DNA of 43,416 nt from contig JAUIDF010000001.1 of NCBI GenBank assembly GCA_030429125.1, positions 1 through 43,416 of the forward strand. The letters run 5' to 3'. The position numbers were made by a program, and so were the translations under genes. Positions 31,914 to 43,293 of this stretch are shown here, piece by piece (position 1 is the stretch's first letter; each line of letters opens with the position of its first letter). Source of the stretch: Gammaproteobacteria bacterium. GTDB taxonomy: Bacteria > Pseudomonadota > Gammaproteobacteria > Arenicellales > CAJQKF01. The notes beneath the pieces were generated by a model. It was not told the DNA's origin. It did not search any database and saw nothing but the letters and a program-made list of their open reading frames with translations.

Positions 31914-34157
31914 ATGCCGCATTCAAAGTACCTGCCCGAACGCATGGGCACCGCCGTCGTATCTCCGCGAGGCCGCTTCGAGGCCGGCGCCTACCAGTCC
32001 TTCGAGCTGACCTATACCGCGGGGTATTTCGGCATCGACGATACCGGCTCGATCAAGGTGGTGCATCGATTCGCCAGCGACATGGGGCGCCCGCAGTTCG
32101 ACGATCCGGCGGCGCCCAACTACGTCTCCGCCGAGGCCAGCAATGGCGCCGTGCTGCATCTGGAATACGACATGAAGCGCAACATCCGTCCATGGGACAA
32201 GACGCTGTACATCAAGGTCGTGAGGGGCTTCCTGCGCGAGGGGGACACTATCACCGTGCGCTTCGGCGACCCGCGCGGCGGCTCGCCGGGCATGCGTTTG
32301 CAGACCTTCTGCGAGGACACGTTCGAGTTCCGCGTACTGGTCGATGCCATCGCCACCTACAACTACGTCGAACTCCCGGTTCAGCCCGAGATCGCCATCG
32401 TGCCCGGGCCGCCGACGCTGTACAAGGCAATCCTGCCAACGGCGCGCGAGGTGGGCGAGGTATTCCGGCTGTGCCTGAAGGGCGAGGACCGCTGGGGCAA
32501 TCCGTCGGACCGTTGCGACGAATCGTTCGCCCTGGTCGCCAGCCGCCCGATGCAGGGGCTGCCGGCGCGCGTGACCTTTTCGCCGGGCGAGTTCTCGGTG
32601 ATCGTCGAGGGCCTGTCCGTCGACGAACCCGGCGACGTGCACATCGAGTTGCGCGCGGATGATGGCACGGTGCGTGCACGGTCCAATCCGCTGCGCATCG
32701 AGGCGTCGATGGATCTCAAGCCCTACTGGGGCGACCTGCACGGGCAGTCCGAGGAGACCATCGGCACGAATTCGGCGCGGGACTTCCATCGCTTCGCCCG
32801 CGACCGCGCCTTCCTCGACGCCGTCGGCCACCAGGGCAACGACTTTCAGATCACGACGCCGTTCTGGCATCACCTCAACGAGCTGTCGCGCGAGTTCAGC
32901 GTGGATGGTTCGTTCGTCGTCTTTCCCGGCTACGAATGGTCGGGCAACACCGGACTCGGCGGCGATCGCAACGTGCTGTACCGCCACGAGGGCCGGCAGA
33001 TCCATCGCTCATCTCATGCATTGGTGGACGACCTGTCCGACATCGATACCGACGCCAATTCGGCCGAGGCCCTGTTCCATGCCCTGAAGAACGAGGACTG
33101 CGTCGTATTCGCCCACATCGGCGGGCGCTATGCCGACATCAATATCGCCCACGACATCCGCCTGGAGCGCGCGGTGGAGGTGCATTCGGCGTGGGGCACG
33201 TTCGAGTGGCTCATCCACGATGCCTTCAGGCAGGGCTACCGGGTCGGCATCGTCTCCAACTCCGACGGCCACAAGGGACGCCCCGGCGCCAGTCATCCCG
33301 GGGCTACCAAGTTCGGCGCCTACGGCGGGCTGACCTGCATGCTGGCCGGGACGTTCAGCCGCGACGGCCTGCTCGACTCATTGCGTCGTCGCCACCACTA
33401 CGGCACTACCGGCTGCCGCATGGTGCTCGATACGCGCGTGGACTTCGATGCGGCCGCGACGATCTTCGACGACGATCCGCTGCTGGGCGACACGGCGAGC
33501 CGGCAGGCGTCGTCGGCGATGATGGGGGACATCTGCCGCAGCGCGGACGAGGCGGTGACCTTCAGTATCGATGTACATGGCTCGGCGCCGATCGAACGCA
33601 TCGAGATACGCAACGGTCTCGAGGTGCTCGAAACGCTGCGGCCCTACGTCGACGCGGATCTCGGACGGCGCATTCGCGTGATCTGGGAAGGCTCGGAGTA
33701 TCGCGGACGTGGCCGCGAAACCACCTGGGACGGCAGCGCGACGCTCCAGGGCAACACCTTCGAGCGGCTCGCGCCGATCAACCGCTACAACCTCGACAAG
33801 CGCTTCGAGCAGACCGCGCCCGGCGTCGTCCAGTGGCAGGCGTTGACCACCGGCGGCTTTGGCGGTTTCGACGCGTGGCTCGCCGATCCCGAGGCCGGTG
33901 AGCTCGAGATCGATACCGCCCTGGTCAGGACGCGAATCGATATCGCCGACATCGGCCGCGACGATCTCGTCTTCGAGGCCGGCGGTATCGCCCGCCGGAT
34001 TCGCGTGTTTCGCCTACCCGACGACAATCCTCACCGGGTGCTCACCGCTCGCCGGCGCGTGACACTGCGCGACGACGGCGACAATGCGTTCTACGTGTGC
34101 GTCACCCAGGAGGACGGCCACCTCGCCTGGTCGAGTCCGATTTACGTTTTTCGCTGA
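31914..34157 (+). CDS. DUF3604-like metal-dependent (PHP-like) hydrolase family protein
   Basis: 747-aa ORF. It has an N-terminal beta-rich region, then YWGDLHGQSEETIGTNS, GYEWSGNTGLGGDRNV, VFAHIGGRYA, EVHSAWGTFEWL and SNSDGHKGRPG, a pattern of His/Asp ligands as in DUF3604/PHP proteins. Family assignment is from memory. Confidence 0.7.
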   Translation: MPHSKYLPERMGTAVVSPRGRFEAGAYQSFELTYTAGYFGIDDTGSIKVVHRFASDMGRPQFDDPAAPNYVSAEASNGAVLHLEYDMKRNIRPWDKTLYIKVVRGFLREGDTITVRFGDPRGGSPGMRLQTFCEDTFEFRVLVDAIATYNYVELPVQPEIAIVPGPPTLYKAILPTAREVGEVFRLCLKGEDRWGNPSDRCDESFALVASRPMQGLPARVTFSPGEFSVIVEGLSVDEPGDVHIELRADDGTVRARSNPLRIEASMDLKPYWGDLHGQSEETIGTNSARDFHRFARDRAFLDAVGHQGNDFQITTPFWHHLNELSREFSVDGSFVVFPGYEWSGNTGLGGDRNVLYRHEGRQIHRSSHALVDDLSDIDTDANSAEALFHALKNEDCVVFAHIGGRYADINIAHDIRLERAVEVHSAWGTFEWLIHDAFRQGYRVGIVSNSDGHKGRPGASHPGATKFGAYGGLTCMLAGTFSRDGLLDSLRRRHHYGTTGCRMVLDTRVDFDAAATIFDDDPLLGDTASRQASSAMMGDICRSADEAVTFSIDVHGSAPIERIEIRNGLEVLETLRPYVDADLGRRIRVIWEGSEYRGRGRETTWDGSATLQGNTFERLAPINRYNLDKRFEQTAPGVVQWQALTTGGFGGFDAWLADPEAGELEIDTALVRTRIDIADIGRDDLVFEAGGIARRIRVFRLPDDNPHRVLTARRRVTLRDDGDNAFYVCVTQEDGHLAWSSPIYVFR

Positions 34158-34171
34158 CACGCGCCTGGCGG

Positions 34172-36703
34172 TCAGTAGCCCAGCAGGGGCGGCGCCTCGG
34201 GCAGGTAGCGGGAGCGGTTCGCCTCGGACAGTGGCGCCGGCACCAGTGCGTCGGCGTGCTGGCGCAGCGTGAGGCCCGTCGGCGCGAGGTCGAGGATCGC
34301 GATCCCGGCGCCGTCGCGCGTCGCCAGCCGACGACCGTCCGGTGACAGCGCGCCGCCCGGCAGGACCGCAACGGCGACCGGTTCGCCGCTCTCGGTGTCC
34401 CAGACGCGCGTGGCGTCGGCGCTGGTGACGAAGCGTGTGCCATCGGCGTTGAAGGCCGCGCGCACGATACCATGGTGGCCCGGCAGTTCGTGGATCGGCT
34501 CACCCGTTCTCGCGTCCCACAGGATGACGCGATTGTCGTCGAGGCCGGTGCTGAAGTCGGCGAACTCGGTGGTCAGCAGGTGGCGGCCGTCGGGACTGTA
34601 TTCGACCGAGCCGGCGTCGCGCCGGTGCCCTGGCAGTGTCAGCACGAGGGCGCCGTCGAGGGTCCAGACGCGTGCGGTACCGTCCGCCGAGCGGGTGGCG
34701 ACGCGGCGGCCGAACGGTGCGAAGGCGGCGCCCGTCACCCGGCCTTCATGACCGGAAAGCTCGAACAGGGCGGCGCCAGTCTCCATGTCGAAGCCGCGCG
34801 CGGAACCGTCGGCATAGCCGAGCAGCAGTCGCGCGCCGTCGGCATCGAAACGCATGGCCGTCACGCCCGGTTTTCGCGACGACAATGCGTGCCGCAGGTC
34901 GCCGGTCACGACATCGCGCACGTCGACCCCCTTCGACGTGCGAACCGCGACATGACGCCCGGACGGGTCGAGTACGGCGGCAGTGGCCGGGCCGTCTTCG
35001 TCTTCGAACGCCTGCAGGAACTCGCCGCTGCGCGCATCCCAGGTGCGCGGCGCGTCACCGGCCGCAAGCGTCAATACGCGGCTTCCGTCGGCGGCGACCT
35101 GGAAGCGATCCGGTTGATAACCGGGGGCGTCCAGTCGGCGCCGCTCGACGCCGCGACCAAGGTCCCAAAGCCGGACCGAATGGGTCGTGAGGGCGTCTGT
35201 GATGCTGAAGCGGTCGAGGCTGAACAACTCGTCGCGGTCCCGGCCGAAGGCAAGCTGCGCCGTGCTGTCGAAGATGCCTTCGAGGCGTATTGGCCGTGTC
35301 TGCAGGTCATGGACACGAACGCCGTCACCGCCCACGATCAGCAGCTTCTCGCCCGAGGCGTCGAACGACAGACCGTCCACGTGGTGACCGCTACCGGGCA
35401 GGGTATACATGACCCGGCCGTCGCGCGAGTCCACGACCACGGCGTCGCTGCCCTGGTCCAGGGCGAGTCGTCGCCCGTCGGGTGCGAATGCACCGTGGTT
35501 GACGGGCAGTTCCAGGTACAGCGGTACCGGGCGCGAGGTGCGGGCGTCGAACAGCCGCGCGCCGCCGTCGCCGAAAAACGCGAGCAGTCGGTCCGCGTCC
35601 GAACTGACGATGGCATTGGCGAAGCGCAGGCCGCGCGGTGCGTGAAACTCGCGCCGCGTACCGCCGAGGGGGTCGACGAGCTCGAGCACGCCGTCGCCGG
35701 ACAGGCTGACGACCGGTCCCGCGCTTGCCGGCGCCGGGCGCGCCTGCGTCGCCAGCGACTTCACACCGCCACCCTCGACGGGGACCGGGTAGGCGGCGAC
35801 TGCCTCGGTCAAACGCGCCTGGGCGGCGACGTTCATGCGACGATCCAGTTCGGCGCGTGCGGAAATCGGCACGCCGAGAAGCGCCTCCAGTCGCCGCGTG
35901 AAGCGTCCGAGGTCGAGCGCCTGGATGTCACCGAGCGCCGTGCGGGCCAGTTGTACGGCCAGCGCGTGATGTCCTTCGCGAGTGCGCTCGTATGACGCGT
36001 CGAGCGTGGCGATGGTGCGGGCAAACAGGCGCTGCTGTTGCTGCTGCTCGAACAGGAACAGGCTGCCGCCCGCGACCAACAGCAGCAGGGCCGATGCAGC
36101 GGCGACAACGGCTCGTCGCGCGCGCCGACGCCGTCGCTCGCGTTGCCGCAGGCTGTCGTATCTCACGCCGAGAATTCCGCTGATGAGTTTAAGCCGCGCC
36201 GCCGCACGGCCGTCACCGTTCGCTCGCGCGTCGGCGGCGATGGGCTCCGTGCGCTCGCTGGTCACGGCACGATTCCCGTCGACCCGGTAGCGAATCGCCT
36301 CGGGAAAGCACTCCAGCGCCGGGTCGTCCCTGTCCGTGGCATTGGGTTCGCCGGCGACGATCAGGCACAGCACCCGGTCGGCCCGGCCCATGGCCTTGAA
36401 TGACTTGATCTCCTCGTTGACCCACAACGAACCCGCGGCGTCGGGTGAGCAGATCACGATCAGGCAGGCGGACTGCGACAGCGCCCGGGAAATATTCTCG
36501 GTCAGATCGGACGCCGTCGGCAGCTCTTCGCGGTCACGGAATATCGGTGTCAGGCGGCGCGGTACGGGACCGTCACGCCCCTGGGTGTCGACCAGTCGCC
36601 GCGGTACGCGGTAGTTCTCGAGCGTTTTGTGCAGCCACTCGCCCCAGCGGCGATCCCGGTGGCTGTAGCTGATGAAGGCACGGTAACCAAACGCCTCGGC
36701 CAC
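34172..36703 (-). CDS. TIR domain - single transmembrane helix - WD40 beta-propeller protein
   Basis: GTG 36703; 843 aa. The TIR region is YRAFISYSHRDRRWGEWL...PIFRDREELP...LIVICSPDAAGSLWVNEEIKSF, with the conserved Glu in WVNEE. RQRERRRRRARR is followed by the hydrophobic AVVAAASALLLLVAGGSLFLF (nt ~36050-36112). Multiple canonical WD40 units follow, e.g. LSGHEGRVTGAAFAPFGRRVATRSADGTARVWTL and LPGHHGIVRAAFNADGTRFVTSADATRVWD. Confidence 0.9.
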   Translation of the reverse strand: MAEAFGYRAFISYSHRDRRWGEWLHKTLENYRVPRRLVDTQGRDGPVPRRLTPIFRDREELPTASDLTENISRALSQSACLIVICSPDAAGSLWVNEEIKSFKAMGRADRVLCLIVAGEPNATDRDDPALECFPEAIRYRVDGNRAVTSERTEPIAADARANGDGRAAARLKLISGILGVRYDSLRQRERRRRRARRAVVAAASALLLLVAGGSLFLFEQQQQQRLFARTIATLDASYERTREGHHALAVQLARTALGDIQALDLGRFTRRLEALLGVPISARAELDRRMNVAAQARLTEAVAAYPVPVEGGGVKSLATQARPAPASAGPVVSLSGDGVLELVDPLGGTRREFHAPRGLRFANAIVSSDADRLLAFFGDGGARLFDARTSRPVPLYLELPVNHGAFAPDGRRLALDQGSDAVVVDSRDGRVMYTLPGSGHHVDGLSFDASGEKLLIVGGDGVRVHDLQTRPIRLEGIFDSTAQLAFGRDRDELFSLDRFSITDALTTHSVRLWDLGRGVERRRLDAPGYQPDRFQVAADGSRVLTLAAGDAPRTWDARSGEFLQAFEDEDGPATAAVLDPSGRHVAVRTSKGVDVRDVVTGDLRHALSSRKPGVTAMRFDADGARLLLGYADGSARGFDMETGAALFELSGHEGRVTGAAFAPFGRRVATRSADGTARVWTLDGALVLTLPGHRRDAGSVEYSPDGRHLLTTEFADFSTGLDDNRVILWDARTGEPIHELPGHHGIVRAAFNADGTRFVTSADATRVWDTESGEPVAVAVLPGGALSPDGRRLATRDGAGIAILDLAPTGLTLRQHADALVPAPLSEANRSRYLPEAPPLLGY

Positions 36704-36751: not shown

Positions 36752-37579
36752 CTATTCGGACTCCAGGCTCTTGATGATGTAACCGCCGGACTTCTCGTCG
36801 TGTTGCAGGGTCAGCAGCTTGCGGTTCTCGGCTTCTTCGAGCAGTTGACCGAAGGTGCGAAAGCCGTGGTAGGTCTCGTCGAAGCCCGGCTTGCGCCGCT
36901 TAAGCGCCTGCTTGACCATCGATCCCCAGACCTTCTCCTGTTCGCCGCGCTCCTTGAGCAGGGCCTCGATCGTCTCGATGACCAGGTCGAGCCCTTCCTG
37001 CTTCTTGTCTTCCTCGCCGTTCCCGGACGCCTTCTTGCTGGCCTTCTTCGACGTCGCCTTGCGCTTTGCCGGCTTCTTGCGCTTCTCCGATTCGCGCACC
37101 AGGTCGTCGTAGAAAATAAACTCGTCGCAGTTCGCGATGAGCAGGTCCGAGGTGGCGTTCTTCACTCCCACCCCGATGACAATGCGATCGTTCTCCCGGA
37201 GCTTGCTGACCAGCGGCGAGAAATCGGAGTCGCCCGACAGGATGACGAACGTGTCCACGTGGGACTTCGTGTAGCAAAGGTCCAGCGCGTCGACCACCAT
37301 GCGGATATCGGCCGAGTTCTTGCCCGACAGGCGCACGTGCGGTATCTCGATCATCTCGAAGGCCGCCTCGTGCATGGCCTGCTTGAACTCCTTGTAACGA
37401 TCCCAGTCGCAGTAGGCCTTCTTCACCACGATGGAACCCTTGAGCAGCAGCCTCTCGAGTACCTTCTGGATCTCGAAGGCCGAGTACTTGGCGTCGCGCA
37501 CGCCGAGCGCCATGTTCTCGAAGTCGCAGAACAGGGCCATGTTGCGGGTTTCGGATCGTTCGTTCATGTGGTCGAGCAT
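36752..37579 (-). CDS. NYN (LabA/PIN-like) domain protein with Lys-rich linker and C-terminal OST-HTH/LOTUS domain
   Basis: NYN core: MALFCDFENMALGVRD...VDALDLCYTKSHVDTFVILSGDSDFSPLVSKLRENDRIVIGVG. Linker: KRKKPAKRKATSKKASKKAS. LOTUS-like region: VWGSMVKQALKRRKPGFDETYHGFRTFGQLLEEA. The start is ambiguous (ATG 37600, 37579 or 37567). It lies 48 nt upstream of the TIR gene on the same strand. Confidence 0.85.
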   Translation of the reverse strand: MLDHMNERSETRNMALFCDFENMALGVRDAKYSAFEIQKVLERLLLKGSIVVKKAYCDWDRYKEFKQAMHEAAFEMIEIPHVRLSGKNSADIRMVVDALDLCYTKSHVDTFVILSGDSDFSPLVSKLRENDRIVIGVGVKNATSDLLIANCDEFIFYDDLVRESEKRKKPAKRKATSKKASKKASGNGEEDKKQEGLDLVIETIEALLKERGEQEKVWGSMVKQALKRRKPGFDETYHGFRTFGQLLEEAENRKLLTLQHDEKSGGYIIKSLESE

Positions 37580-37716
37580 GCCCCGTGGCGGTTGAATCAT
37601 GCCGACACAATAGGCATCCGGCGTCCAAGTTGCAATGACCCGCGCGCGTCGCGGGCCTTGCCGGGTTGTGTAATACTGGCGCGAGCCGCACCCGGCGTTC
37701 ACCGACGGAGGATCTC

Positions 37717-38742
37717 ATGTTCACGACCACGATCGCCGGCAGTCTGCCGAAGCCGGCCTGGCTTGCCGAGCCGGAGAAACTCTGGGCCGGGTGGCGCCTC
37801 GAAGGCGATGCCCTGGTCGACGCCCAGCGCGACGCCGCGCTGGTATGGATCAGGGAGCAGGAAGACGCCGGTATAGATATCGCTACCAATGGCGAGCAAT
37901 TCCGCGTTCACTTCGTCCACGGGTTCCTGCAGCACGTCGAGGGGATCGACTGGAATCTCATGACGCCCATGGGCATTCGGGACAACCGCTACATCGTGGA
38001 TGTACCCACGGTTACCGCCGCGGTGCGCCGACCGGCCCCGGTTCACGACGACGAGGTGCGTTACACCCGCGCCCGCGTCCGCGGCAAGCTCAAGTTCACC
38101 CTGCCGGGGCCGATGACCATATGCGACACCATCGCCGATGCACATTACGGTCGTCGCGCGGACATGGCCATGGCGTTCGCCGCGTTGCTCAACGACGAGG
38201 CACGCGAGCTCGAAGCGCTTGGCGTCGACGTTATCCAGTTCGACGAACCGGCGTTCAACGTATTCATGGACGATGTGGCCGAATGGGGTATGGCTGCACT
38301 GGAGCGGGCTGCCGACGGGCTGAAGTGCAAGACCGCCGTACATATCTGCTACGGCTATGGTATCGACGAGAATGTCCGTTGGAAGCAAACGCTCGGTGCC
38401 GAGTGGCGACAGTATGAAAAGACGTTTCCTGTCATCAATGACAGTCGCATTGACCAGGTATCACTCGAATGCGCCAACTCTCATGTCCCCATGTCTCTCA
38501 TCCGCCTGCTCCCTGACAAGGAGATCATGGTGGGCGTGATCGACGTGGCATCACGCGATGTCGAGACACCGGAGCAGGTGCTCTCGGTGATCGACGAGGC
38601 CTGTCGGCACGCGGATGTCGAGCGCGTGCTGCCCTGCACCAACTGCGGTCTCGCACCCTTGCCGCGTTCGATCGCCGTGCACAAGCTCGCGGCGCTCGGA
38701 CAAGGTGCCCGACTGGCCCGAAAGAAGCGGGGGCTTGCCTGA
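37717..38742 (+). CDS. Cobalamin-independent methionine synthase family protein (MetE C-terminal-domain-only, Meth_synt_2)
   Basis: ATG 37717 with GGAGGA ~5 nt upstream; 341 aa. Motifs are MFTTTIAGSLPKPAWL, GEQFRVHFVH, IQFDEPAF, VHICYGY and LPCTNCGL (Zn-ligand contexts). Confidence 0.85.
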   Translation: MFTTTIAGSLPKPAWLAEPEKLWAGWRLEGDALVDAQRDAALVWIREQEDAGIDIATNGEQFRVHFVHGFLQHVEGIDWNLMTPMGIRDNRYIVDVPTVTAAVRRPAPVHDDEVRYTRARVRGKLKFTLPGPMTICDTIADAHYGRRADMAMAFAALLNDEARELEALGVDVIQFDEPAFNVFMDDVAEWGMAALERAADGLKCKTAVHICYGYGIDENVRWKQTLGAEWRQYEKTFPVINDSRIDQVSLECANSHVPMSLIRLLPDKEIMVGVIDVASRDVETPEQVLSVIDEACRHADVERVLPCTNCGLAPLPRSIAVHKLAALGQGARLARKKRGLA

Positions 38743-39071
38743 CGGGCGGGCTTGCTGCGCCGAAAGGCATCGGCGTTCAATTGGCGATTCACCTGGCCGA
38801 CAGAGGCGAATCGTTGAGCACCATCCCGGTCCGCATTCGATATTCCTGATGCGAACGGAGTCGATCGCCCCTTGTCCTGTTCGGATGGTCGCGCTACATT
38901 TTCGTCCGCCTCGTCGATGAGCCGATCCCGTGCCGGCCAGCACGTCGACAGTATTGAACAACCCGTGATCGAGAGAAGTCGAAACCAGTCGAAGTATTGC
39001 AAATAGAGCAACGACGGTGCGCGCAGGCAAGTATCGGATGGCCGCGACGCTACCGCCCAGGAGGAAGCACC

Positions 39072-39920
39072 TTGTCCAACGACAGCCATCTACGCGATGC
39101 AGTAGCCAAAGTTGGAACGCCCGAGACGATCGATCGGCGTTCGTACGATCCCGGTCCGGCGACGCGGCCGGGTGGCGCCGGATTCCTGGAAATCTCCAGC
39201 GAACCGGCGCAGGGTCGGAAAGCGGCAGGCGCCGATTCCCCTCCCTTTCCCGGGACTGCTTCGTATCACGGCCACTTCCATGTGCTCGACTCGTTGTCCG
39301 CGGAAACGCGAAGACACATCCTGGCACTGTGCGACGAAGTGTATCTCGACCGCGGTGAAATACTGTGGAACCAGGGGGATCTCAATACGGGCTTCGGCGT
39401 GGTCAGGAAGGGGATCGTAGCAGGCATCTACAATAGCCCGACCGGGAAGACCGGCCTGTCGGGATTCTGGCGCGACGGCGACGCCATCGGAACCAGTTCC
39501 GGTTCCACGCGAATGCTGACTGCCATGGCGTTGACCGGGGCAAGCGTGCTGACGATCGAAAGGGAGATGTTCTTCGAGGCCGTTCGCACCTACCCCGATT
39601 TCGCGGAGGCCGCCGTCAACATGGCCTTCGAGCGTCTGACGTGGCTGGGCGAACTGATTTTCTCGCACGAAACGCAGTCCACGACACAGCGTGTCGCCAC
39701 CATCCTGCTCGCGATGCTGGATTGCTTTGGCCGGCCGATGCGACACGGCATGGTGATCGATGCGCCGCTGACCAACGATATGCTGGCCGCGCTGGTTGGT
39801 GCGTCGCGCCAGTTCATCAACGGAATCCTGCACAAACTGCAGGATGAGCAGGTTCTCAGGTTGCGGCGCTCGTCGATCGTCGTCGTCGACCGCAAACGCC
39901 TGGAATCGCTGCTTTCCTGA
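39072..39920 (+). CDS. Crp/Fnr-family transcriptional regulator (cNMP-binding-like domain + C-terminal HTH), no FNR-type Cys cluster
   Basis: TTG 39072 is preceded by AGGAGGA with 6-nt spacing. GTG 39282 would give a more typical 212-aa protein. The effector domain is LCDEVYLDRGEILWNQGDLNTGFGVVRKGIVAG. The HTH is TNDMLAALVGASRQFINGILHKLQDEQVL. Confidence 0.8.
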   Translation: MSNDSHLRDAVAKVGTPETIDRRSYDPGPATRPGGAGFLEISSEPAQGRKAAGADSPPFPGTASYHGHFHVLDSLSAETRRHILALCDEVYLDRGEILWNQGDLNTGFGVVRKGIVAGIYNSPTGKTGLSGFWRDGDAIGTSSGSTRMLTAMALTGASVLTIEREMFFEAVRTYPDFAEAAVNMAFERLTWLGELIFSHETQSTTQRVATILLAMLDCFGRPMRHGMVIDAPLTNDMLAALVGASRQFINGILHKLQDEQVLRLRRSSIVVVDRKRLESLLS

Positions 39921-40112
39921 CGCGGGCCGTCACACCGATCGCATCGCGCGTTACTTCCTTGCAAGGACTTTGTTGCTGATTGCGGATCGTGTTGCCGATA
40001 CGCGGACCAGGTTTGCGGATCGGGACGTGCATCTCTTGCCGCCGGCGTGGTGTGAAGCACGCGATGACCTCCCGATCCATCGTACCAGAACAGAAAAAAT
40101 CTCCTCGACCAG

Positions 40113-40128
40113 TGTCAGTTTTCTGACA
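40113..40128. promoter_or_regulatory. Perfect 5-6-5 palindrome TGTCA-GTTTTC-TGACA, candidate Crp-family operator upstream of the cytochrome operon
   Basis: Read directly. It has the same half-site spacing as the CRP consensus TGTGA-N6-TCACA. It lies 181 nt upstream of the cytochrome c ATG and 193 nt downstream of the regulator stop, in a 388-bp, relatively AT-richer intergenic region. Confidence 0.4.
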
Positions 40129-40308
40129 TTCACCCCGCTGTACGAACTGCAATACTTCCACGCGAGTCAAGTAATCCGGCAGTAGTTTGCCGGTTAACCG
40201 TGGTTCCAACGGGCCGCGCGTTGCTGTTTGCTGTGCCGGCAGCGCAAGGCTGTTACGCGATGTGGATCTTACCGCGCATGGATGCGTTGTTCGGAGGAGT
40301 GAAAACAA

Positions 40309-40671
40309 ATGAAGCTACCGAGACGGCAGATAGTGGCCGGCGCCTGTCTTTTGGCGCTCGGCGGGTTCTCTTCGTCGGCTTTCTCGCAGTCGGTCGACGA
40401 GTTGTTCGACGGTGCGTGGCGCTACCAGGCGTCCTGTGCCGGCTGTCATGACAGTGACGGATCCGGCATCTATCCGTTCGGGCCACCGCTCAAGGGCAAT
40501 GCATTCGTTCAGAATGCACCGGTTCCGATCGTCGTACAGGTTATCCAGAACGGTCGCAACTACGGTGAGAGAAATCATCTCGCCTACGTTGGCATGCCGG
40601 CGTTTCACTACATACGCGGCGGTGAAGCGATAGCGCTGGTCAACTACATGAAGAACGGCCTGCAAAACTGA
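40309..40671 (+). CDS. Periplasmic monoheme class I c-type cytochrome
   Basis: ATG 40309 with GGAGGAG 9 nt upstream; 120 aa. Signal peptide is MKLPRRQIVAGACLLALGGFSSSAFS. The heme motif is CAGCH (nt 40435-40449), with a probable distal Met in YVGMPAF. Confidence 0.85.
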   Translation: MKLPRRQIVAGACLLALGGFSSSAFSQSVDELFDGAWRYQASCAGCHDSDGSGIYPFGPPLKGNAFVQNAPVPIVVQVIQNGRNYGERNHLAYVGMPAFHYIRGGEAIALVNYMKNGLQN

Positions 40672-40731
40672 CGACTAGTGCCCGACACGTATTGTCTTGG
40701 CGATTCGGGTTCACTAAGTAGGAGAGCAATA

Positions 40732-42174
40732 ATGCGAAGATTGACTGCAACCCTTGCAATGGTTACCGGCACGCTGGCTATGCTGGCGGTCACATTGCCA
40801 CAGGACGCTCATGCCGTCGCGGGATTCTCCCGGCAGACCGGCATGACGTGTAACATGTGCCATACCCTGCATGGCGCACCGACTCCCAACTTCACCTTTA
40901 CCGGCAAGAAGTTCAACGCCCTCGGTTATCGTCTGCCTGGCGGCTTCAAGAACAGCATGTCCGACTCCCAGGAACAGGGCAAGCCGGAGGACAAGGGTGA
41001 ATACTTCAAGCTGCTGCCGACGTCGACCAGTGCGCGTTTTCAGTACCAGATCGCCAATACCAGCGAACCGCCGGGCGCGGACAGCTTCGGTCCCGTCATT
41101 ACCAACCCGACGTCCCGCTTGGCGTTCTTCCCCTTTACCGGGCCGGTCGGCGACCACTTCGGCATCTGGACCGAGTTCTACATTACGCCATTCACCAGCG
41201 AAGACAATGAATGGGGTATTGCGGATACTTCGTACGAAGAGTTCGACTTCCGTTACGTATTCGATACCGATGACGACTCGACGTTTACCGGTCTTGCGAT
41301 AAGCAACCAGGGTGTTGCTTCGCTCTTCGGATTCAGTCCCTTTCCCGGACTGCCCAGTGAAATCGGGCGCGGCGGCGTAGGCGGATATTCGCATCCCAAC
41401 TGGGGAGGGCTGTATGCCTATGGTTGGCGTGATGACCGCTGGGTCTGGGGCGTCGGCGCGGAGACCGGTGATACCAACTACGATTGGGACGACAGCAATA
41501 TCGCCGGCGTGATCGGCTATGCGGCGCGTAACCGAAACGACGACGAGCTGTGGTACAACCTGTACTTCCGTACCGGCGACGATGCATTGCCGATGGTCAC
41601 GTCGAGTGGCGCGCAGGCTTCTTCTCGTTCGTGGCAGTATCGGGACGCCGTCGGCGGTGTCAGTGCGACGAGAACCATGGGCGGCGCCTGTCCGGGCGTC
41701 AGCGGACGCCGGGTATCGGGCAGCTGCGCCTACCTGGCCGAGGAACTCGACGATCACACGTCCATCGATCTCGAGATACGCCGGGGTGGTCAGAACGTCG
41801 ACAAGTTCTTCGGTGAGAAAGCCGCGGGACCGTGGAGTTTCGAGTACGTCGCCAGGTTGAGCCTCAACGACGAGGACTACAACGACGGCGCCAGCGCCGA
41901 GCGCAACTCCTGGGGCTTTGAGACCGTGATCGGTTACAAGCACACCCACTACTTCAAGCCCGCGATCTATGGCGACTTCGATTTCGAGTTCACCGACAGC
42001 TCGGGCGTGAAGCACGACATCGACACGAAGCTCAGCTGGTCGCTGCGCTACGCGTACAAGGCGACGGAGAACTTCCTGCTGTACGCCCAGTACGCAAACA
42101 GTCAGCGCAATTCACTCGACGGGAAGGCGCTGACCGGGAAGTCGTTCTCGATCACCGCCGATATCTCCTTCTAG
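40732..42174 (+). CDS. cyc2: Cyc2-like fused monoheme cytochrome c / outer-membrane porin (candidate Fe(II) oxidase)
   Basis: ATG 40732 with GGAGAG 5 nt upstream; 480 aa. The signal peptide ends in AHA. A single CNMCH heme motif (nt 40849-40863) lies within ~15 residues of the mature N-terminus, in FSRQTGMTCNMCHTLHG. The remaining ~430 aa are rich in Gly/Tyr/Asp/aromatic alternation and end in ITADISF, the terminal Phe typical of OM beta-barrels. A strong terminator follows. Confidence 0.65.
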   Translation: MRRLTATLAMVTGTLAMLAVTLPQDAHAVAGFSRQTGMTCNMCHTLHGAPTPNFTFTGKKFNALGYRLPGGFKNSMSDSQEQGKPEDKGEYFKLLPTSTSARFQYQIANTSEPPGADSFGPVITNPTSRLAFFPFTGPVGDHFGIWTEFYITPFTSEDNEWGIADTSYEEFDFRYVFDTDDDSTFTGLAISNQGVASLFGFSPFPGLPSEIGRGGVGGYSHPNWGGLYAYGWRDDRWVWGVGAETGDTNYDWDDSNIAGVIGYAARNRNDDELWYNLYFRTGDDALPMVTSSGAQASSRSWQYRDAVGGVSATRTMGGACPGVSGRRVSGSCAYLAEELDDHTSIDLEIRRGGQNVDKFFGEKAAGPWSFEYVARLSLNDEDYNDGASAERNSWGFETVIGYKHTHYFKPAIYGDFDFEFTDSSGVKHDIDTKLSWSLRYAYKATENFLLYAQYANSQRNSLDGKALTGKSFSITADISF

Positions 42175-42212
42175 GGATGTCGGAACCGTCAACGTAGCCT
42201 ATCGCTACTGGT

Positions 42213-42248
42213 GGTCGACCGCCGGCAGGGCCGGCGGTCGACCTTTTT
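42213..42248 (+). terminator. Rho-independent terminator: 14-bp perfect GC-rich stem, 3-nt loop, T5 tract
   Basis: GGTCGACCGCCGGC (42213-42226), loop AGG, GCCGGCGGTCGACC (42230-42243), then TTTTT (42244-42248). It starts 39 nt after the Cyc2-like stop. Confidence 0.85.
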
Positions 42249-42308
42249 CCAGGCAATCGGAGAATTCATCACCTCTCCGATCCACCCAGATCCCAAGGAC
42301 TCCCGACA

Positions 42309-42635
42309 ATGTTCGATTCTCTTGAAATGTCCCGGCGCCGGATGTTCCGGTTCGGTTTGTACGCGATCTCCGCCGCCGGCGTCGCGATGGGCCTGTCGCC
42401 GCGACGAGTTAAGGCGCAGGACCTTCCGCAGCTCTCCGAGGATGATGCGACCGCCAAGGAACTGCAATACGTGCACGACGGTACGGCCTCGGCGCGAACC
42501 GACGCCTCGCAGGAGTGTGCCAATTGCACTTACTACAAGGGCGGCGCAGGCGATGCATGGGCGCGCTGCGACCTGTTTCCCGGCAAGGTGGTCAACGGTA
42601 AGGGTTGGTGCAAGGTTTGGACGGCGAAATCCTAG
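42309..42635 (+). CDS. High-potential iron-sulfur protein (HiPIP), Tat-exported
   Basis: 108 aa. Twin-arginine signal MSRRRMFRFGLYAISAAGVAMG. The C-terminal region is QECANCTYYKGGAGDAWARCDLFPGKVVNGKGWCKVWTAKS, with the four-Cys HiPIP pattern and GWCxxW. Confidence 0.9.
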   Translation: MFDSLEMSRRRMFRFGLYAISAAGVAMGLSPRRVKAQDLPQLSEDDATAKELQYVHDGTASARTDASQECANCTYYKGGAGDAWARCDLFPGKVVNGKGWCKVWTAKS

Positions 42636-42708
42636 TGTACGATCCCGGTCGGCCGCACAGTCTCGTGCGGTCGATTTCGGCCGCATTCGCCTCGGGAGGA
42701 TGATTTGC

Positions 42709-43293
42709 ATGGTTCGCCGACCTGGCAGGTCGCCGGCAATCTCGCTGGCGTTTCTCTTCATTTCACTGCCGCTTGCCCAGCCGGCCGTATCCGCGGAGTG
42801 CCGCTACGACGACGCGGGATTTACCGCCGGCGCAGTCCTTTGCCAGGCCGGGTTGCGGATGCAGTGCCAGTCGGTCGACGACGACGGGCCGCAATGGGTC
42901 TCGTTGAATCAGTCGTGTTCGACCGGGGCGCCTTCGGTGAGCGAAACCGGTGGCGACGTCGAACGGGACGATCCGGCGCCGGCAATCGTCGAGGACTCGA
43001 CCGCCGCGCTCGAATCGACAACCACTGAACCGGTGGAGAGTGCCGAAGTCGGTATCACGGTTCACTGGGCGGAATATGGCCGCGACGGGCTGAACTGCGA
43101 CGCGGTTGCGGAGGTGCGCGCGCATTGCGCCGAGCGCACCGGGTGTTCGCTGGACGTGGTGCCTGAGAATCTCTGTGGCGACTCGAACCCGGAGCGGCCG
43201 AACCTGCTCACCGTGTTCTGGTCCTGCGGCGATCTGCTGCGCAATCCCGCCTATGCCCAGGACGGAACCCGGCTCGAACTGGACTGCTCCTGA
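42709..43293 (+). CDS. Secreted Cys-rich protein; C-terminal domain resembles SUEL/rhamnose-binding (Gal_Lectin) fold
   Basis: ATG 42709 with GGGAGGA 8 nt upstream, inside track ORF 42211..43293. Signal peptide is MVRRPGRSPAISLAFLFISLPLAQPAVSA. An acidic linker follows. Then comes ITVHWAEYGRDGLNCDAVAEVRAHCAERTGCSLDVVPENLCGDSNPERPNLLTVFWSCG, similar to the A-x-YGR...C...C-x-G...C...GDPC...L-x-V-x-Y-x-C pattern. The lectin call is tentative. Confidence 0.55.
   Translation: MVRRPGRSPAISLAFLFISLPLAQPAVSAECRYDDAGFTAGAVLCQAGLRMQCQSVDDDGPQWVSLNQSCSTGAPSVSETGGDVERDDPAPAIVEDSTAALESTTTEPVESAEVGITVHWAEYGRDGLNCDAVAEVRAHCAERTGCSLDVVPENLCGDSNPERPNLLTVFWSCGDLLRNPAYAQDGTRLELDCS

What the first reader, a model, noticed from the sequence alone, without database searches (positions are those of the whole stretch)
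39072..42635. Candidate Fe(II)-oxidation / extracellular electron-uptake module: Crp-family regulator, periplasmic cytochrome c, Cyc2-like fused cytochrome-porin, HiPIP
Seen in the sequence: 40732-42174 encodes a signal peptide, one CxxCH (CNMCH) about 12 residues into the mature protein, then ~430 aa of beta-barrel-like sequence ending in Phe. The gene immediately upstream is a small monoheme cytochrome c (CAGCH). After a strong terminator comes a Tat-exported HiPIP with the full 4-Cys pattern. Established knowledge: Cyc2 of Acidithiobacillus and the Zetaproteobacteria/Gallionellaceae is exactly such a fused monoheme cytochrome-porin. It passes electrons from Fe(II) to periplasmic carriers (Cyc1-type cytochromes, rusticyanin or the HiPIP Iro). 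Inference: this GC-rich organism may oxidise iron, or exchange electrons with another extracellular donor, through a compact cyt c / Cyc2 / HiPIP chain. Expression may be controlled by the adjacent Crp-family regulator.
Basis: partly seen in the sequence, partly recalled or inferred. Interest (0 to 1): 0.7.

Follow-up and report, generated by a model that had tools for sequence, protein, structure and literature searches.

The report
Divergent Cyc2-type cytochrome-porin electron-uptake operon
The window carries a three-gene set (small cytochrome c, an outer-membrane pore with a built-in heme related to the iron oxidase Cyc2, and a HiPIP iron-sulfur protein) that most likely carries electrons from outside the cell, probably from dissolved iron, to the respiratory chain; it belongs to an unnamed side branch of a known protein family.

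Summary

The 480-aa protein (40732-42174) has no Pfam or NCBIfam family. It is nevertheless a full-length homologue of Cyc2:
- Its family profile aligns end to end with a profile of canonical Cyc2-type proteins that includes Acidithiobacillus Cyc2 from rus operons (hhalign probability 99.9%, E 1e-31).
- The reverse HMM hits only this ORF in the window.
- AlphaFold gives a confident barrel that matches 16-stranded porins, including OprP and OprO.

It belongs to a distinct clade. CxxCH is invariant in 108 of 108 members, but only 6 pass the published strict Cyc2 motif, and the PxL motif is replaced by a shifted PNF.

The order cyt c / porin-cytochrome / HiPIP recurs in five other gammaproteobacterial contexts. 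In two loci the module abuts a heme-copper oxidase operon.

The Crp regulator is not conserved next to the module.

Inward electron flow to an oxidase is well supported by context. Fe(II) as the donor is inferred, not shown. I rate this a new variant of a known kind, of moderate interest.

The parts
39072..39920 (+). Crp/Fnr-family transcription regulator, 282 aa, with no FNR-type cysteine cluster. It is a neighbour of the module, not a conserved part of it.
   Evidence: Pfam finds cNMP_binding and HTH_Crp_2. NCBIfam gives only weak sub-threshold hits to NtcA, FixK and CRP. No such regulator lies next to the module in L001-L011 or L033-L035.
40113..40128 (.). Perfect palindrome TGTCAGTTTTCTGACA (TGTCA-N6-TGACA), about 180 nt upstream of the cytochrome c start codon. 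It is a candidate operator for a Crp-family dimer (inference).
   Evidence: It is the only exact match in the window. With up to 1 mismatch there are 2 matches against 0.72 expected by chance. This is a weak lead.
40309..40671 (+). Periplasmic monoheme class I cytochrome c, 120 aa, with a Sec signal, CAGCH and the axial Met in GMPAF.
   Evidence: Pfam finds PF00034 and PF13442. Orthologues at 41-62% identity lie immediately upstream of the porin-cytochrome gene in L001, L006, L009 and L010, and CxxCH and M96 are invariant. The nearest solved sequences are c-552, c6 and CcoP-type domains.
40732..42174 (+). Cyc2-superfamily fused monoheme cytochrome-porin, 480 aa. Signal peptide: residues 1-28. 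Short heme region: residues 29 to about 95. Beta-barrel: residues 100-480. The C-terminal residue is Phe.
   Evidence: No Pfam or NCBIfam family matches. hhalign against Acidithiobacillus ferrianus Cyc2 gives probability 98.3%, E 2.6e-14. The profile-profile comparison with canonical Cyc2-type proteins gives probability 99.9%, E 1.2e-31 over 407 columns. The reverse HMM scores 72 bits and hits only this ORF in the window. The AlphaFold barrel has pTM 0.76. Foldseek matches Omp32, VhChiP, OprP and OprO.
40849..40863 (+). Heme c attachment motif CNMCH (residues 40-44). It follows AVAGFSRQTGMT, a variant of the Cyc2 signature AxPxFAR[Q/K][T/Y].
   Evidence: Translation. The motif is invariant in alignment A1. 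The signature definition comes from Keffer et al. 2021, PMC8406198.
42213..42248 (+). G+C-rich 14-bp hairpin followed by T5, between the porin-cytochrome and HiPIP genes. It looks like an intrinsic terminator and is probably an intercistronic attenuator or mRNA stabiliser.
   Evidence: L008 and L010 have hairpins of 17 and 13 bp at the same position, with different sequences and no U-run.
42309..42635 (+). Tat-exported high-potential iron-sulfur protein (HiPIP), 108 aa.
   Evidence: Pfam PF01355 scores 1.7e-18. The RR pair and four Cys are invariant in orthologues that lie directly downstream of the porin-cytochrome gene in L001, L006, L008 and L010, and a HiPIP also follows in L033. The closest solved sequences are the HiPIP entries 1HPI, 1CKU and 1EYT.

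Best explanation
Genes 40309-42635 encode a compact chain that takes electrons across the outer membrane.

1. The 480-aa protein is a divergent member of the Cyc2 superfamily. A porin-type barrel of 16 to 18 strands carries one c-type heme on a short N-terminal segment of about 65 residues. That segment is too small to fold as a free-standing cytochrome, so it presumably sits in or under the barrel.
2. A soluble reductant reaches the heme through or at the pore and is oxidised there. Fe(II) is the most likely reductant.
3. The electron passes to the co-encoded periplasmic carriers, the class I cytochrome c and the Tat-exported HiPIP.
4. These carriers deliver it to a terminal oxidase encoded elsewhere in this genome. 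In relatives, A-type heme-copper oxidase genes lie immediately beside the module.

The hairpin between the porin-cytochrome and HiPIP genes probably sets the relative expression of the two parts rather than separating them.

Shown: homology to Cyc2, the invariant heme site, the barrel prediction, the conserved gene order and the adjacency to oxidase genes. Inferred: the direction of electron flow, Fe(II) as substrate, which carrier acts first, and any role of the Crp regulator.
For: Homology:
- The A1 profile against A. ferrianus Cyc2 gives probability 98.3%, E 2.6e-14 over 381 columns. That Cyc2 gene heads an operon of cyc2, a c-type cytochrome gene (the cyc1 position), a cupredoxin-like gene, cox-sized ORFs and rus.
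- BLASTP of the N-terminal region gives 28% identity over 156 aa, E 7e-9.
- The profile-profile comparison with 38 canonical sequences gives probability 99.9%, E 1.2e-31, end to end.
- An HMM built from 43 canonical sequences hits only this ORF among 282 window ORF segments: 72 bits, E 5e-15 at Z = 1.8e9.
- The A1 profile finds 1633 proteins at E <= 1e-3 among 1.84 billion. Most of the full-length distant hits listed carry AVPSFARQTG..C..CHT.FP.LT.FGR.FKLNGY, which is the published Cyc2 signature.

Heme site and fold:
- C40, C43, H44 and R34 are invariant. The C-terminal residue is aromatic in 108 of 108 family members.
- The barrel over residues 100-480 is confident, and the first 16-stranded barrels in the match list include OprP 2O4V and OprO 4RJW. 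Keffer et al. report these same templates for Cyc2.

Gene context:
- The order cyt c / porin-cytochrome / HiPIP occurs in the window, L001/L002, L006, L008/L009, L010/L011 and L033, each with unrelated flanking genes.
- Cyt c followed by the porin-cytochrome also occurs in Gemmatimonadota loci L003-L005 and L007, and in L034 and L035.
- In L006 the HiPIP gene is followed by COX1, COX3, an unknown gene, a cyt c gene and a COX2-cyt c fusion.
- In L035 the porin-cytochrome gene is followed by COX2, a cupredoxin, COX1 and COX3. This mirrors the rus operon.
- In L008 it is followed by the ccm heme-attachment operon.

HiPIPs are high-potential carriers (established knowledge). That fits delivery to an oxidase rather than export of low-potential electrons.
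Against: - No experiment or expression data exist for any member of this clade. All are labelled 'hypothetical'.
- The protein deviates from the defining Cyc2 signature. It reads AGFSRQT instead of PxFAR[QK][TY]. The post-heme motif is a PNF shifted by four residues instead of PxL. Only 6 of 108 members pass the strict filter and none has PxL in place. In a crude NJ tree the clade sits apart from the canonical sequences, including Acidithiobacillus.
- Keffer et al. state that Cyc2 homologues far from the characterised ones need verification and may have other functions.
- The heme region is modelled at pLDDT below 50, so its position relative to the pore is unknown.
- The named relatives are MAGs of Aquisalimonadaceae, an unclassified gammaproteobacterium and Gemmatimonadota. 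None of these lineages appears among the iron-oxidisers named in the papers read here.
- The window holds no oxidase, bc1 or carbon-fixation genes.
- A terminator-like hairpin separates HiPIP from the other two genes in this locus.
Confidence: 0.6

Rival explanations
1. The hardware is the same (porin-cytochrome, cyt c, HiPIP), but the physiological donor is not Fe(II). The clade's altered heme-pocket motif and extra loops tune it to another soluble or surface-bound reductant. Candidates are Mn(II), reduced humic or quinone compounds, a reduced sulfur or arsenic species, or a cathode-like mineral. Alternatively it removes toxic Fe(II) without conserving energy.
For: - The clade is separate from canonical Cyc2, and its signature motifs differ systematically.
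- None of its named hosts belongs to a lineage listed among the iron-oxidisers in the papers read.
- Keffer et al. leave other functions open for distant homologues.
- The gammaproteobacterial subclade has a private Cys-Cys loop, C321 and C334.
Against: - All three biochemically tested Cyc2-type proteins oxidise Fe(II).
- A single heme behind a pore suits a small dissolved ion such as Fe2+, which is the argument Keffer et al. make.
- No gene pointing to another substrate is conserved next to the module.
Confidence: 0.25
2. The chain runs outward. The module exports respiratory electrons from the periplasm to an extracellular acceptor, as the Mtr-type porin-cytochrome conduits of metal reducers do.
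For: - A heme in a trans-outer-membrane barrel can in principle work in either direction.
- One paper notes that FeGenie-type Cyc2 hits in Gemmatimonadota cannot be assigned to oxidation or reduction.
Against: - HiPIP is a high-potential carrier (established knowledge).
- The module is physically joined to terminal oxidase operons in L006 and L035. That makes sense for electron delivery to O2, not for export.
- A single heme cannot span the membrane the way decaheme MtrA does (established knowledge).
Confidence: 0.07
3. The protein is an ordinary diffusion porin that happens to contain CxxCH, and the neighbouring redox genes are unrelated.
For: No Pfam or NCBIfam family matches. The barrel resembles general porins.
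Against: - CxxCH is invariant, and is the only such motif, in 108 of 108 homologues across two phyla.
- The flanking motif matches the Cyc2 signature.
- There is full-length profile homology to Cyc2.
- The cyt c and HiPIP neighbours are conserved.
Confidence: 0.01
4. The adjacent Crp-family protein is the dedicated regulator of the module. It would act at the TGTCA-N6-TGACA palindrome at 40113-40128.
For: - The regulator gene lies directly upstream on the same strand.
- The palindrome is perfect and has the half-site spacing of CRP-type operators. It sits in the 388-nt gap before the cyt c gene and is the only exact copy in 43 kb.
Against: - None of the 9 other genomic contexts has a Crp-family gene next to the module. 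Their neighbours are AbiEi_1, CBS, TetR, HTH_23, AraC or none.
- With one mismatch allowed, 14 of 100 shuffles give at least 2 matches.
- The effector is unknown, and the protein has no FNR-type Cys cluster.
Confidence: 0.25

Closest known systems
Cyc2 of Acidithiobacillus (first gene of the rus operon cyc2-cyc1-cup-coxBACD-rus), compared here through the A. ferrianus orthologue L016:3127-4584
   Same: - The lengths are almost equal (480 vs 485 aa).
- Both have a signal peptide, one CxxCH about 12 residues into the mature protein, the F.RQTG motif before it, and a porin barrel ending in an aromatic residue.
- Full-length profile homology is established.
- In both, a c-type cytochrome gene is adjacent. 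In relatives (L006, L035) a heme-copper oxidase operon, with or without a cupredoxin, follows, as in the rus operon.
   Different: - Identity is only about 28%, and only over the N-terminal 156 residues.
- The window protein has AGFSRQT where Cyc2 has PSFARQT.
- PxL is replaced by PNF after a 4-residue insertion.
- The cytochrome gene lies upstream and is monoheme, rather than downstream and diheme.
- The partner is a HiPIP instead of rusticyanin.
- The host is not an acidophile, as far as can be told.
Neutrophilic Cluster 1 Cyc2 (Mariprofundus ferrooxydans PV-1, Gallionellaceae), described by Keffer et al. 2021 (PMC8406198) and McAllister et al. 2020 (PMC7029218)
   Same: - The fused cytochrome-porin architecture is the same, and so are the structural templates OprP and OprO.
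- The proposed pathway runs through periplasmic cytochrome c to a terminal oxidase.
   Different: I had no Cluster 1 sequence, so the relationship could not be measured. The window clade fails the motif filter used to build the published tree.
PioABC of Rhodopseudomonas palustris TIE-1 and the Iro/Hip HiPIPs of Acidithiobacillus and Ferrovum
   Same: A HiPIP is encoded with, or proposed to work with, an outer-membrane iron-oxidising conduit as the periplasmic electron acceptor (PMC10654088; PMC10879576).
   Different: PioAB is a decaheme cytochrome inside a separate porin, not a fused monoheme porin. None of the papers I searched or read describes a cyt c / cyc2 / HiPIP gene trio.
General 16-stranded porins (Omp32, VhChiP, OmpT, OprP, OprO)
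   Same: The barrel fold matches: Foldseek E 3e-9 to 7e-7, TM-score normalised to target 0.49-0.60.
   Different: - These porins have no heme region and no CxxCH.
- There is no detectable sequence similarity.

Membership tests
Cyc2 fused cytochrome-porin family (criteria of Keffer et al. 2021 and FeGenie) | N-terminal signal peptide | tested here: met
   The hydrophobic N-terminus ends AHA|V, and V29 is invariant in the family. This was judged by eye; no SignalP run was possible.
Cyc2 fused cytochrome-porin family (criteria of Keffer et al. 2021 and FeGenie) | Single CxxCH heme-binding motif near the N-terminus | tested here: met
   CNMCH lies at residues 40-44 and is the only CxxCH. It is invariant in 108 of 108 homologues.
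Cyc2 fused cytochrome-porin family (criteria of Keffer et al. 2021 and FeGenie) | AxPxFAR[Q/K][T/Y] motif just upstream of CxxCH (strict filter PxFAR[Q/K][T/Y]) | tested here: not met
   The window protein reads A-V-A-G-F-S-R-Q-T, with P changed to A and A changed to S. Only 6 of 108 clade members pass the strict pattern, while 99 of 108 keep F.R[QK][TY].
Cyc2 fused cytochrome-porin family (criteria of Keffer et al. 2021 and FeGenie) | PxL motif about 4 residues downstream of CxxCH | tested here: not met
   After the His comes TLHGAPTPNF. None of 108 clade members has PxL at +2 to +4, against 40 of 43 canonical sequences. hhalign places a 4-residue insertion there, so that PNF aligns with PxL.
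Cyc2 fused cytochrome-porin family (criteria of Keffer et al. 2021 and FeGenie) | Length of at least 365 aa with a C-terminal porin barrel (16 strands predicted) | tested here: met
   The protein is 480 aa. AlphaFold predicts a barrel over residues 100-480, with 16 long strands plus a short hairpin (16 or 18 strands by DSSP). The first 16-stranded barrels in the match list include OprP and OprO.
Cyc2 fused cytochrome-porin family (criteria of Keffer et al. 2021 and FeGenie) | Significant sequence homology to a characterised Cyc2 | tested here: met
   hhalign against A. ferrianus Cyc2 gives probability 98.3%, E 2.6e-14. BLASTP gives E 7e-9, below the 1e-5 cut-off of the published pipeline. The profile-profile comparison gives E 1.2e-31. 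The reciprocal HMM scores 72 bits.
Cyc2 fused cytochrome-porin family (criteria of Keffer et al. 2021 and FeGenie) | Score above the calibrated cut-off of a FeGenie Cyc2 cluster 1, 2 or 3 HMM, and placement in the published tree | not testable with these tools
   The FeGenie HMMs and the figshare alignment are not available here. My own NJ tree places the clade apart from the canonical sequences sampled.
Cyc2 fused cytochrome-porin family (criteria of Keffer et al. 2021 and FeGenie) | Fe(II) oxidation activity, covalent heme and outer-membrane location | not testable with these tools
   This needs experiments.
HiPIP (PF01355) | Four Cys that ligate the [4Fe-4S] cluster, a family HMM score above the cut-off, and periplasmic export | tested here: met
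   The Pfam score is 67 bits against a cut-off of 22. C70, C73, C87 and C101 and the RR pair are invariant.
Class I c-type cytochrome | N-terminal CxxCH, a distal Met near the C-terminus, and a family HMM score above the cut-off | tested here: met
   PF00034 scores 31.5 bits (cut-off 21.3) and PF13442 scores 31.2 bits (cut-off 27). C43, C46, H47 and M96 are invariant in 7 sequences.
Crp/Fnr transcription regulators | cNMP-binding-like effector domain plus a C-terminal Crp-type HTH | tested here: met
   Both Pfam domains score above their cut-offs. No NCBIfam equivalog reaches its cut-off, so the subfamily and effector are unknown.

The most novel reading that the evidence does not exclude
The window protein represents an unrecognised fourth lineage of Cyc2-type porin-cytochromes. 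The lineage is found in soil Gemmatimonadota and in saline or alkaline Gammaproteobacteria. It has its own heme-pocket signature, F[AST]RQTGM.C..CH....P.PNFTFTGKKF. Motif-filtered Cyc2 surveys would discard it. In Gammaproteobacteria it has a dedicated HiPIP partner, and in some members a hard-wired heme-copper oxidase. If these proteins oxidise Fe(II), or a different donor, then a large group of supposedly heterotrophic bacteria has a lithotrophic side-metabolism that is not currently counted.
Probability: 0.3. Interest if true: 0.6.

Novelty: new variant of a known kind. Interest (0 to 1): 0.45.

Why it matters
Cyc2 is the main genetic marker used to find iron-oxidising bacteria in genomes and metagenomes. 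This clade is clearly homologous to Cyc2, yet its members are annotated only as 'hypothetical protein'. It also fails the strict motif filter used to curate the reference tree, so surveys may miss it.

The conserved three-gene unit, and its direct fusion to oxidase operons in relatives, give a ready-made and testable pathway from the outer membrane to O2. The lineages that carry it (Gemmatimonadota, Aquisalimonadaceae-like Gammaproteobacteria) are not among the iron-oxidisers named in the papers read here.

If activity is confirmed, the taxonomic range of microbial iron oxidation or extracellular electron uptake would widen. It would also provide a natural Cyc2-HiPIP pair for biochemical study.

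Tried and rejected
- Pfam and NCBIfam scans of the 480-aa protein gave no family. The only hit was a sub-threshold 'choice-of-anchor V' match over the signal and heme region, which I rejected as meaningless.
- A sequence search of the PDB with the family profile found nothing significant.
- Two cluster look-ups for source names and organisms returned almost only unnamed metagenomic entries.
- I searched the neighbouring methionine synthase to identify the host organism. The closest named hits scatter over Alpha- and Gammaproteobacteria, so the host stays unassigned.
- The supplements of Keffer et al. hold identity tables but no sequences. I therefore recovered a reference Cyc2 indirectly. I then read the first gene of the rus operon.
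- The 'fortuitous CxxCH in a porin' idea was rejected on conservation.
- The 'terminator marks the operon end' idea was weakened by the hairpins at the same position in relatives.
- The first attempt at a tree timed out. The tree is a crude NJ tree on a fast alignment and should not be over-read.

Full report
**1. Observation**

- **Crp-family regulator.** ORF 39072-39920 (+) starts at a TTG preceded by AGGAGG. It carries cNMP_binding and HTH_Crp_2 domains. No NCBIfam equivalog reaches its cut-off, so its subfamily and effector are unknown.
- **Cytochrome c.** ORF 40309-40671 (+) is a 120-aa secreted class I cytochrome c with CAGCH and a GMPAF methionine.
- **Porin-cytochrome candidate.** ORF 40732-42174 (+) starts at an ATG behind AGGAG.
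  - It has a signal peptide ending AHA|V and a single CNMCH at residues 40-44, nt 40849-40863.
  - It has about 380 residues of beta-rich sequence and a terminal Phe.
- **Hairpin.** A 14-bp hairpin with 12 G-C pairs and a T5 run lies at 42213-42248.
- **HiPIP.** ORF 42309-42635 (+) is a HiPIP with an SRRRMF twin-arginine signal and four cysteines.

The rest of the window is mostly a glycosyltransferase and LPS gene cluster. Closer to the module lie a TIR-WD40 protein, an NYN-domain protein and a MetE-type methionine synthase. The window contains no oxidase, bc1 or RuBisCO gene.

**2. What the 480-aa protein is**

It matches no Pfam or NCBIfam family. A word-indexed search of 5.8 billion proteins found 108 homologues of 432-497 aa. 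None carries any name other than 'hypothetical protein'. The few that come with an organism label are MAGs of Aquisalimonadaceae, an unclassified gammaproteobacterium and Gemmatimonadota.

In an alignment of 34 homologues, down to 35% identity:
- C40, C43, H44, R34 and the C-terminal Phe are invariant.
- The region around the heme site is the best-conserved part of the protein: AV[PA].F[AST]RQTGM.C..CH....P.PNFTFTGKKF..GYR.P.

All 108 homologues have exactly one CxxCH and a C-terminal aromatic residue. The motif is therefore functional, not fortuitous.

AlphaFold2 with this alignment gives pTM 0.76. The barrel over residues 100-480 is confident. The heme region, residues 22-94, is unmodelled with pLDDT below 50, as expected without the cofactor. 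DSSP shows 16 long strands plus a short hairpin, so the barrel has 16 or 18 strands.

Foldseek against the PDB returns 16-stranded porins: Omp32, VhChiP, OmpT, OprP 2O4V, and OprO 4RJW and 4RJX. Keffer et al. (PMC8406198) report OprO and OprP as the structural templates for Cyc2.

**3. Homology to Cyc2**

*Forward search.* A profile of the family was searched against 1.84 billion representative proteins. It found 41 proteins at E <= 1e-30, which are the clade itself. It also found a halo of about 1600 proteins at E <= 1e-3. Most of the full-length distant hits listed are 414-493 aa and carry AVPSFARQTG..C..CHT.FP.LT.FGR.FKLNGY. This is the AxPxFAR[Q/K][T/Y]...CxxCH...PxL signature that Keffer et al. 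give as defining for Cyc2.

*A named reference.* To get a reference sequence from a known iron oxidiser, I located rusticyanin genes in Acidithiobacillus genomes. I then read the first gene of the operon upstream. In A. ferrianus p1MG this is a 485-aa protein beginning ...ALPSFARQTGWSCAACHTSYPQLTPMGRMFKLLGF. It is followed by:
- a c-type cytochrome gene in the cyc1 position;
- a cupredoxin-like ORF;
- cox-sized ORFs;
- rus.

This is the classical rus operon layout (established knowledge).

*Comparisons.*

| Comparison | Result |
|---|---|
| Family profile vs A. ferrianus Cyc2 (hhalign) | probability 98.3%, E 2.6e-14, 381 columns |
| Window protein vs A. ferrianus Cyc2 (BLASTP) | 28% identity over the first 156 residues, E 7e-9 |
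| Family profile vs 38 canonical sequences, incl. three Acidithiobacillus Cyc2 (hhalign) | probability 99.9%, E 1.2e-31, 407 columns, end to end |
| HMM of 43 canonical sequences vs 282 window ORF segments | hits only this ORF, 72 bits, E 5e-15 scaled to 1.8 billion sequences |

Homology is therefore established in both directions and over the whole length.

**4. How it differs from canonical Cyc2**

- The window protein reads AVAGFSRQT where the signature requires PxFAR. After the heme His it reads TLHGAPTPNF. hhalign places a four-residue insertion there, so PNF occupies the position of PxL.
- Across the clade, 6 of 108 members pass the strict PxFAR[QK][TY] filter, 99 of 108 keep F.R[QK][TY], and none has PxL at the canonical distance. 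Among the canonical sequences, 40 of 43 have PxL there.
- Keffer et al. removed sequences lacking the strict motif before building their tree. Most of this clade would therefore have been discarded. This is my inference.
- A quick NJ tree separates the clade and its intermediates from the canonical sequences, including Acidithiobacillus. I could not obtain Cluster 1 or 2 references or the FeGenie HMMs, so placement relative to the three published clusters is untested.

**5. Gene context**

I fetched nine further genomic contexts of homologues.

| Locus | Gene order around the porin-cytochrome | Flanks or extras |
|---|---|---|
| L001/L002 | cyt c / porin-cytochrome / HiPIP | AbiEi_1 upstream, GGT downstream |
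| L006 | cyt c / porin-cytochrome / HiPIP | CBS upstream; followed by COX1, COX3, an unknown gene, cyt c and a COX2-cyt c fusion |
| L008/L009 | cyt c / porin-cytochrome / HiPIP | TetR upstream; the complete ccm operon follows |
| L010/L011 | cyt c / porin-cytochrome / HiPIP | HTH_23 upstream; a convergent diheme cyt c gene |
| L033 | cyt c / porin-cytochrome / HiPIP | AraC-type gene downstream |
| L034 | cyt c / porin-cytochrome, no HiPIP gene called | AraC-type gene downstream |
| L035 (deeper-branching relative) | cyt c / porin-cytochrome | followed by COX2, a cupredoxin, COX1 and COX3 |
| L003-L005, L007 (Gemmatimonadota) | a more distant class I cyt c / porin-cytochrome | unknown proteins in place of HiPIP |

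Points that follow from the table:
- The L035 layout closely echoes the rus operon.
- The cytochromes and HiPIPs of the gammaproteobacterial loci are orthologous: 41-62% and 34-52% identity, with all ligands invariant.
- The unit therefore travels as a block through unrelated neighbourhoods.
- In the window it lies in the lowest-GC stretch, 0.57-0.63 against 0.66-0.72 elsewhere.
- No context other than the window has a Crp-family gene.

**6. Mechanism**

The best-supported reading is an inward electron path:
1. A small reductant reaches the single heme held at the pore.
2. The electron passes to the periplasmic cytochrome c and/or the HiPIP.
3. It then passes to a terminal oxidase.

Adjacency to oxidase operons in two independent loci argues for uptake rather than export. 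So does the high-potential nature of HiPIPs (established knowledge).

Fe(II) is the leading candidate donor. All three characterised Cyc2-type proteins oxidise it, and Keffer et al. argue that a monoheme behind a pore suits dissolved Fe2+. The same authors warn that distant homologues need verification. The altered heme-pocket motif leaves room for a different donor.

**7. Regulation**

The hairpin at 42213-42243 looks like a terminator. L008 and L010 also have strong hairpins, of 17 and 13 bp with z = -4.9 and -3.6, at the same intergenic position. Their sequences differ and they have no U-run. In L001 and L006 the two genes are only 10-18 nt apart. I therefore read the hairpin as an intercistronic attenuator or stabiliser (inference).

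A perfect TGTCA-N6-TGACA palindrome at 40113-40128 lies upstream of the cyt c gene. It is a possible site for the Crp-family protein, but statistically it is only a weak lead.

**8. Comparison with the literature and verdict**

- Cyc2 genes adjacent to periplasmic cytochrome c genes are known in Acidithiobacillus and Ferrovum (PMC10879576).
- HiPIPs are proposed or shown as periplasmic acceptors in Acidithiobacillus (Iro) and Rhodopseudomonas (PioC) (PMC10654088).
- FeGenie Cyc2 hits have been noted in marine Gemmatimonadota without further analysis (PMC11316326).
- None of the papers I searched or read describes this clade or the cyt c / cyc2 / HiPIP trio.

The finding is a divergent variant of a known system, not a new kind of system. 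The identification is solid, the module is conserved, and the substrate is unproven. Interest is moderate. The main value is a testable candidate pathway in lineages not counted as iron oxidisers, plus a warning that motif filters may hide a whole Cyc2 lineage.

Noticed in passing
window 34172-36703 (-) and 36752-37702 (-): An 843-aa protein has an N-terminal TIR domain (TIR_2 and ThsB_TIR hits) and a C-terminal WD40 beta-propeller. It lies next to a protein with NYN and OST-HTH/LOTUS domains. This could be a defence or signalling pair.
   Followed up: partly
window 1-31000: A large cluster of glycosyltransferase genes (GT2, GT4, GT8). It also holds a PMT_2 mannosyltransferase-like protein, a lipid A acyltransferase, a dTDP-sugar epimerase and a papain-like protease. 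Two big DUF2298 membrane proteins lie at 4382-6412 (-) and 6505-10836 (+).
   Followed up: partly
window 37000-43000: G+C drops to 0.57-0.63 here, against 0.66-0.72 over most of the window. The minimum, 0.573, lies over the cyt c and porin-cytochrome genes. This is consistent with the module having been acquired horizontally.
   Followed up: no
L008:11453-11549 and L010:11438-11501: Relatives also have very stable hairpins between the porin-cytochrome and HiPIP genes, of 17 and 13 bp with z = -4.9 and -3.6. Their sequences are unrelated and they lack a U-run. The position of the structure is conserved but its sequence is not.
   Followed up: partly
window 41692-41733 (residues 321-334 of the 480-aa protein): A second cysteine pair (CPGVSGRRVSGSC) lies in a long predicted loop. 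It occurs only in the gammaproteobacterial subclade and not in the Gemmatimonadota subclade. It may form a disulfide-stapled surface loop.
   Followed up: no
L035:7598-13685 and L006:7439-14275: In two relatives the porin-cytochrome module is joined directly to an A-type heme-copper oxidase operon. L035 has COX2, a cupredoxin, COX1 and COX3. L006 has HiPIP, COX1, COX3, an unknown gene, cyt c and a COX2-cyt c fusion. This resembles the Acidithiobacillus rus operon layout.
   Followed up: partly
L003:5418-9299 and L007:6454-9889: In the Gemmatimonadota loci a YceI-family gene lies divergently upstream of the cyt c and porin-cytochrome pair. Proteins of 213, 152 or 145 aa with no Pfam family take the place of HiPIP. 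They may be unrecognised electron carriers.
   Followed up: partly
L013 (NZ_CP130948.1) and L016 (NZ_CP127524.1): Rusticyanin genes with cyc2 upstream lie on plasmids: pCF3-2 of Acidithiobacillus ferruginosus CF3 and p1MG of A. ferrianus MG. A. ferrianus also has a chromosomal rusticyanin gene. The full cyc2-to-rus operon layout was checked only in p1MG.
   Followed up: no
window 31914-34157 (+) and L034:13220-15082: A DUF3604-containing protein lies a few kb from the module both in the window and in one relative's locus. This is probably coincidence.
   Followed up: no
window 42733-43293 (+): Downstream of the HiPIP gene is a secreted, Cys-rich protein of about 186 aa. Its only match is a sub-threshold SUEL-lectin hit, and its function is unknown.
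   Followed up: no
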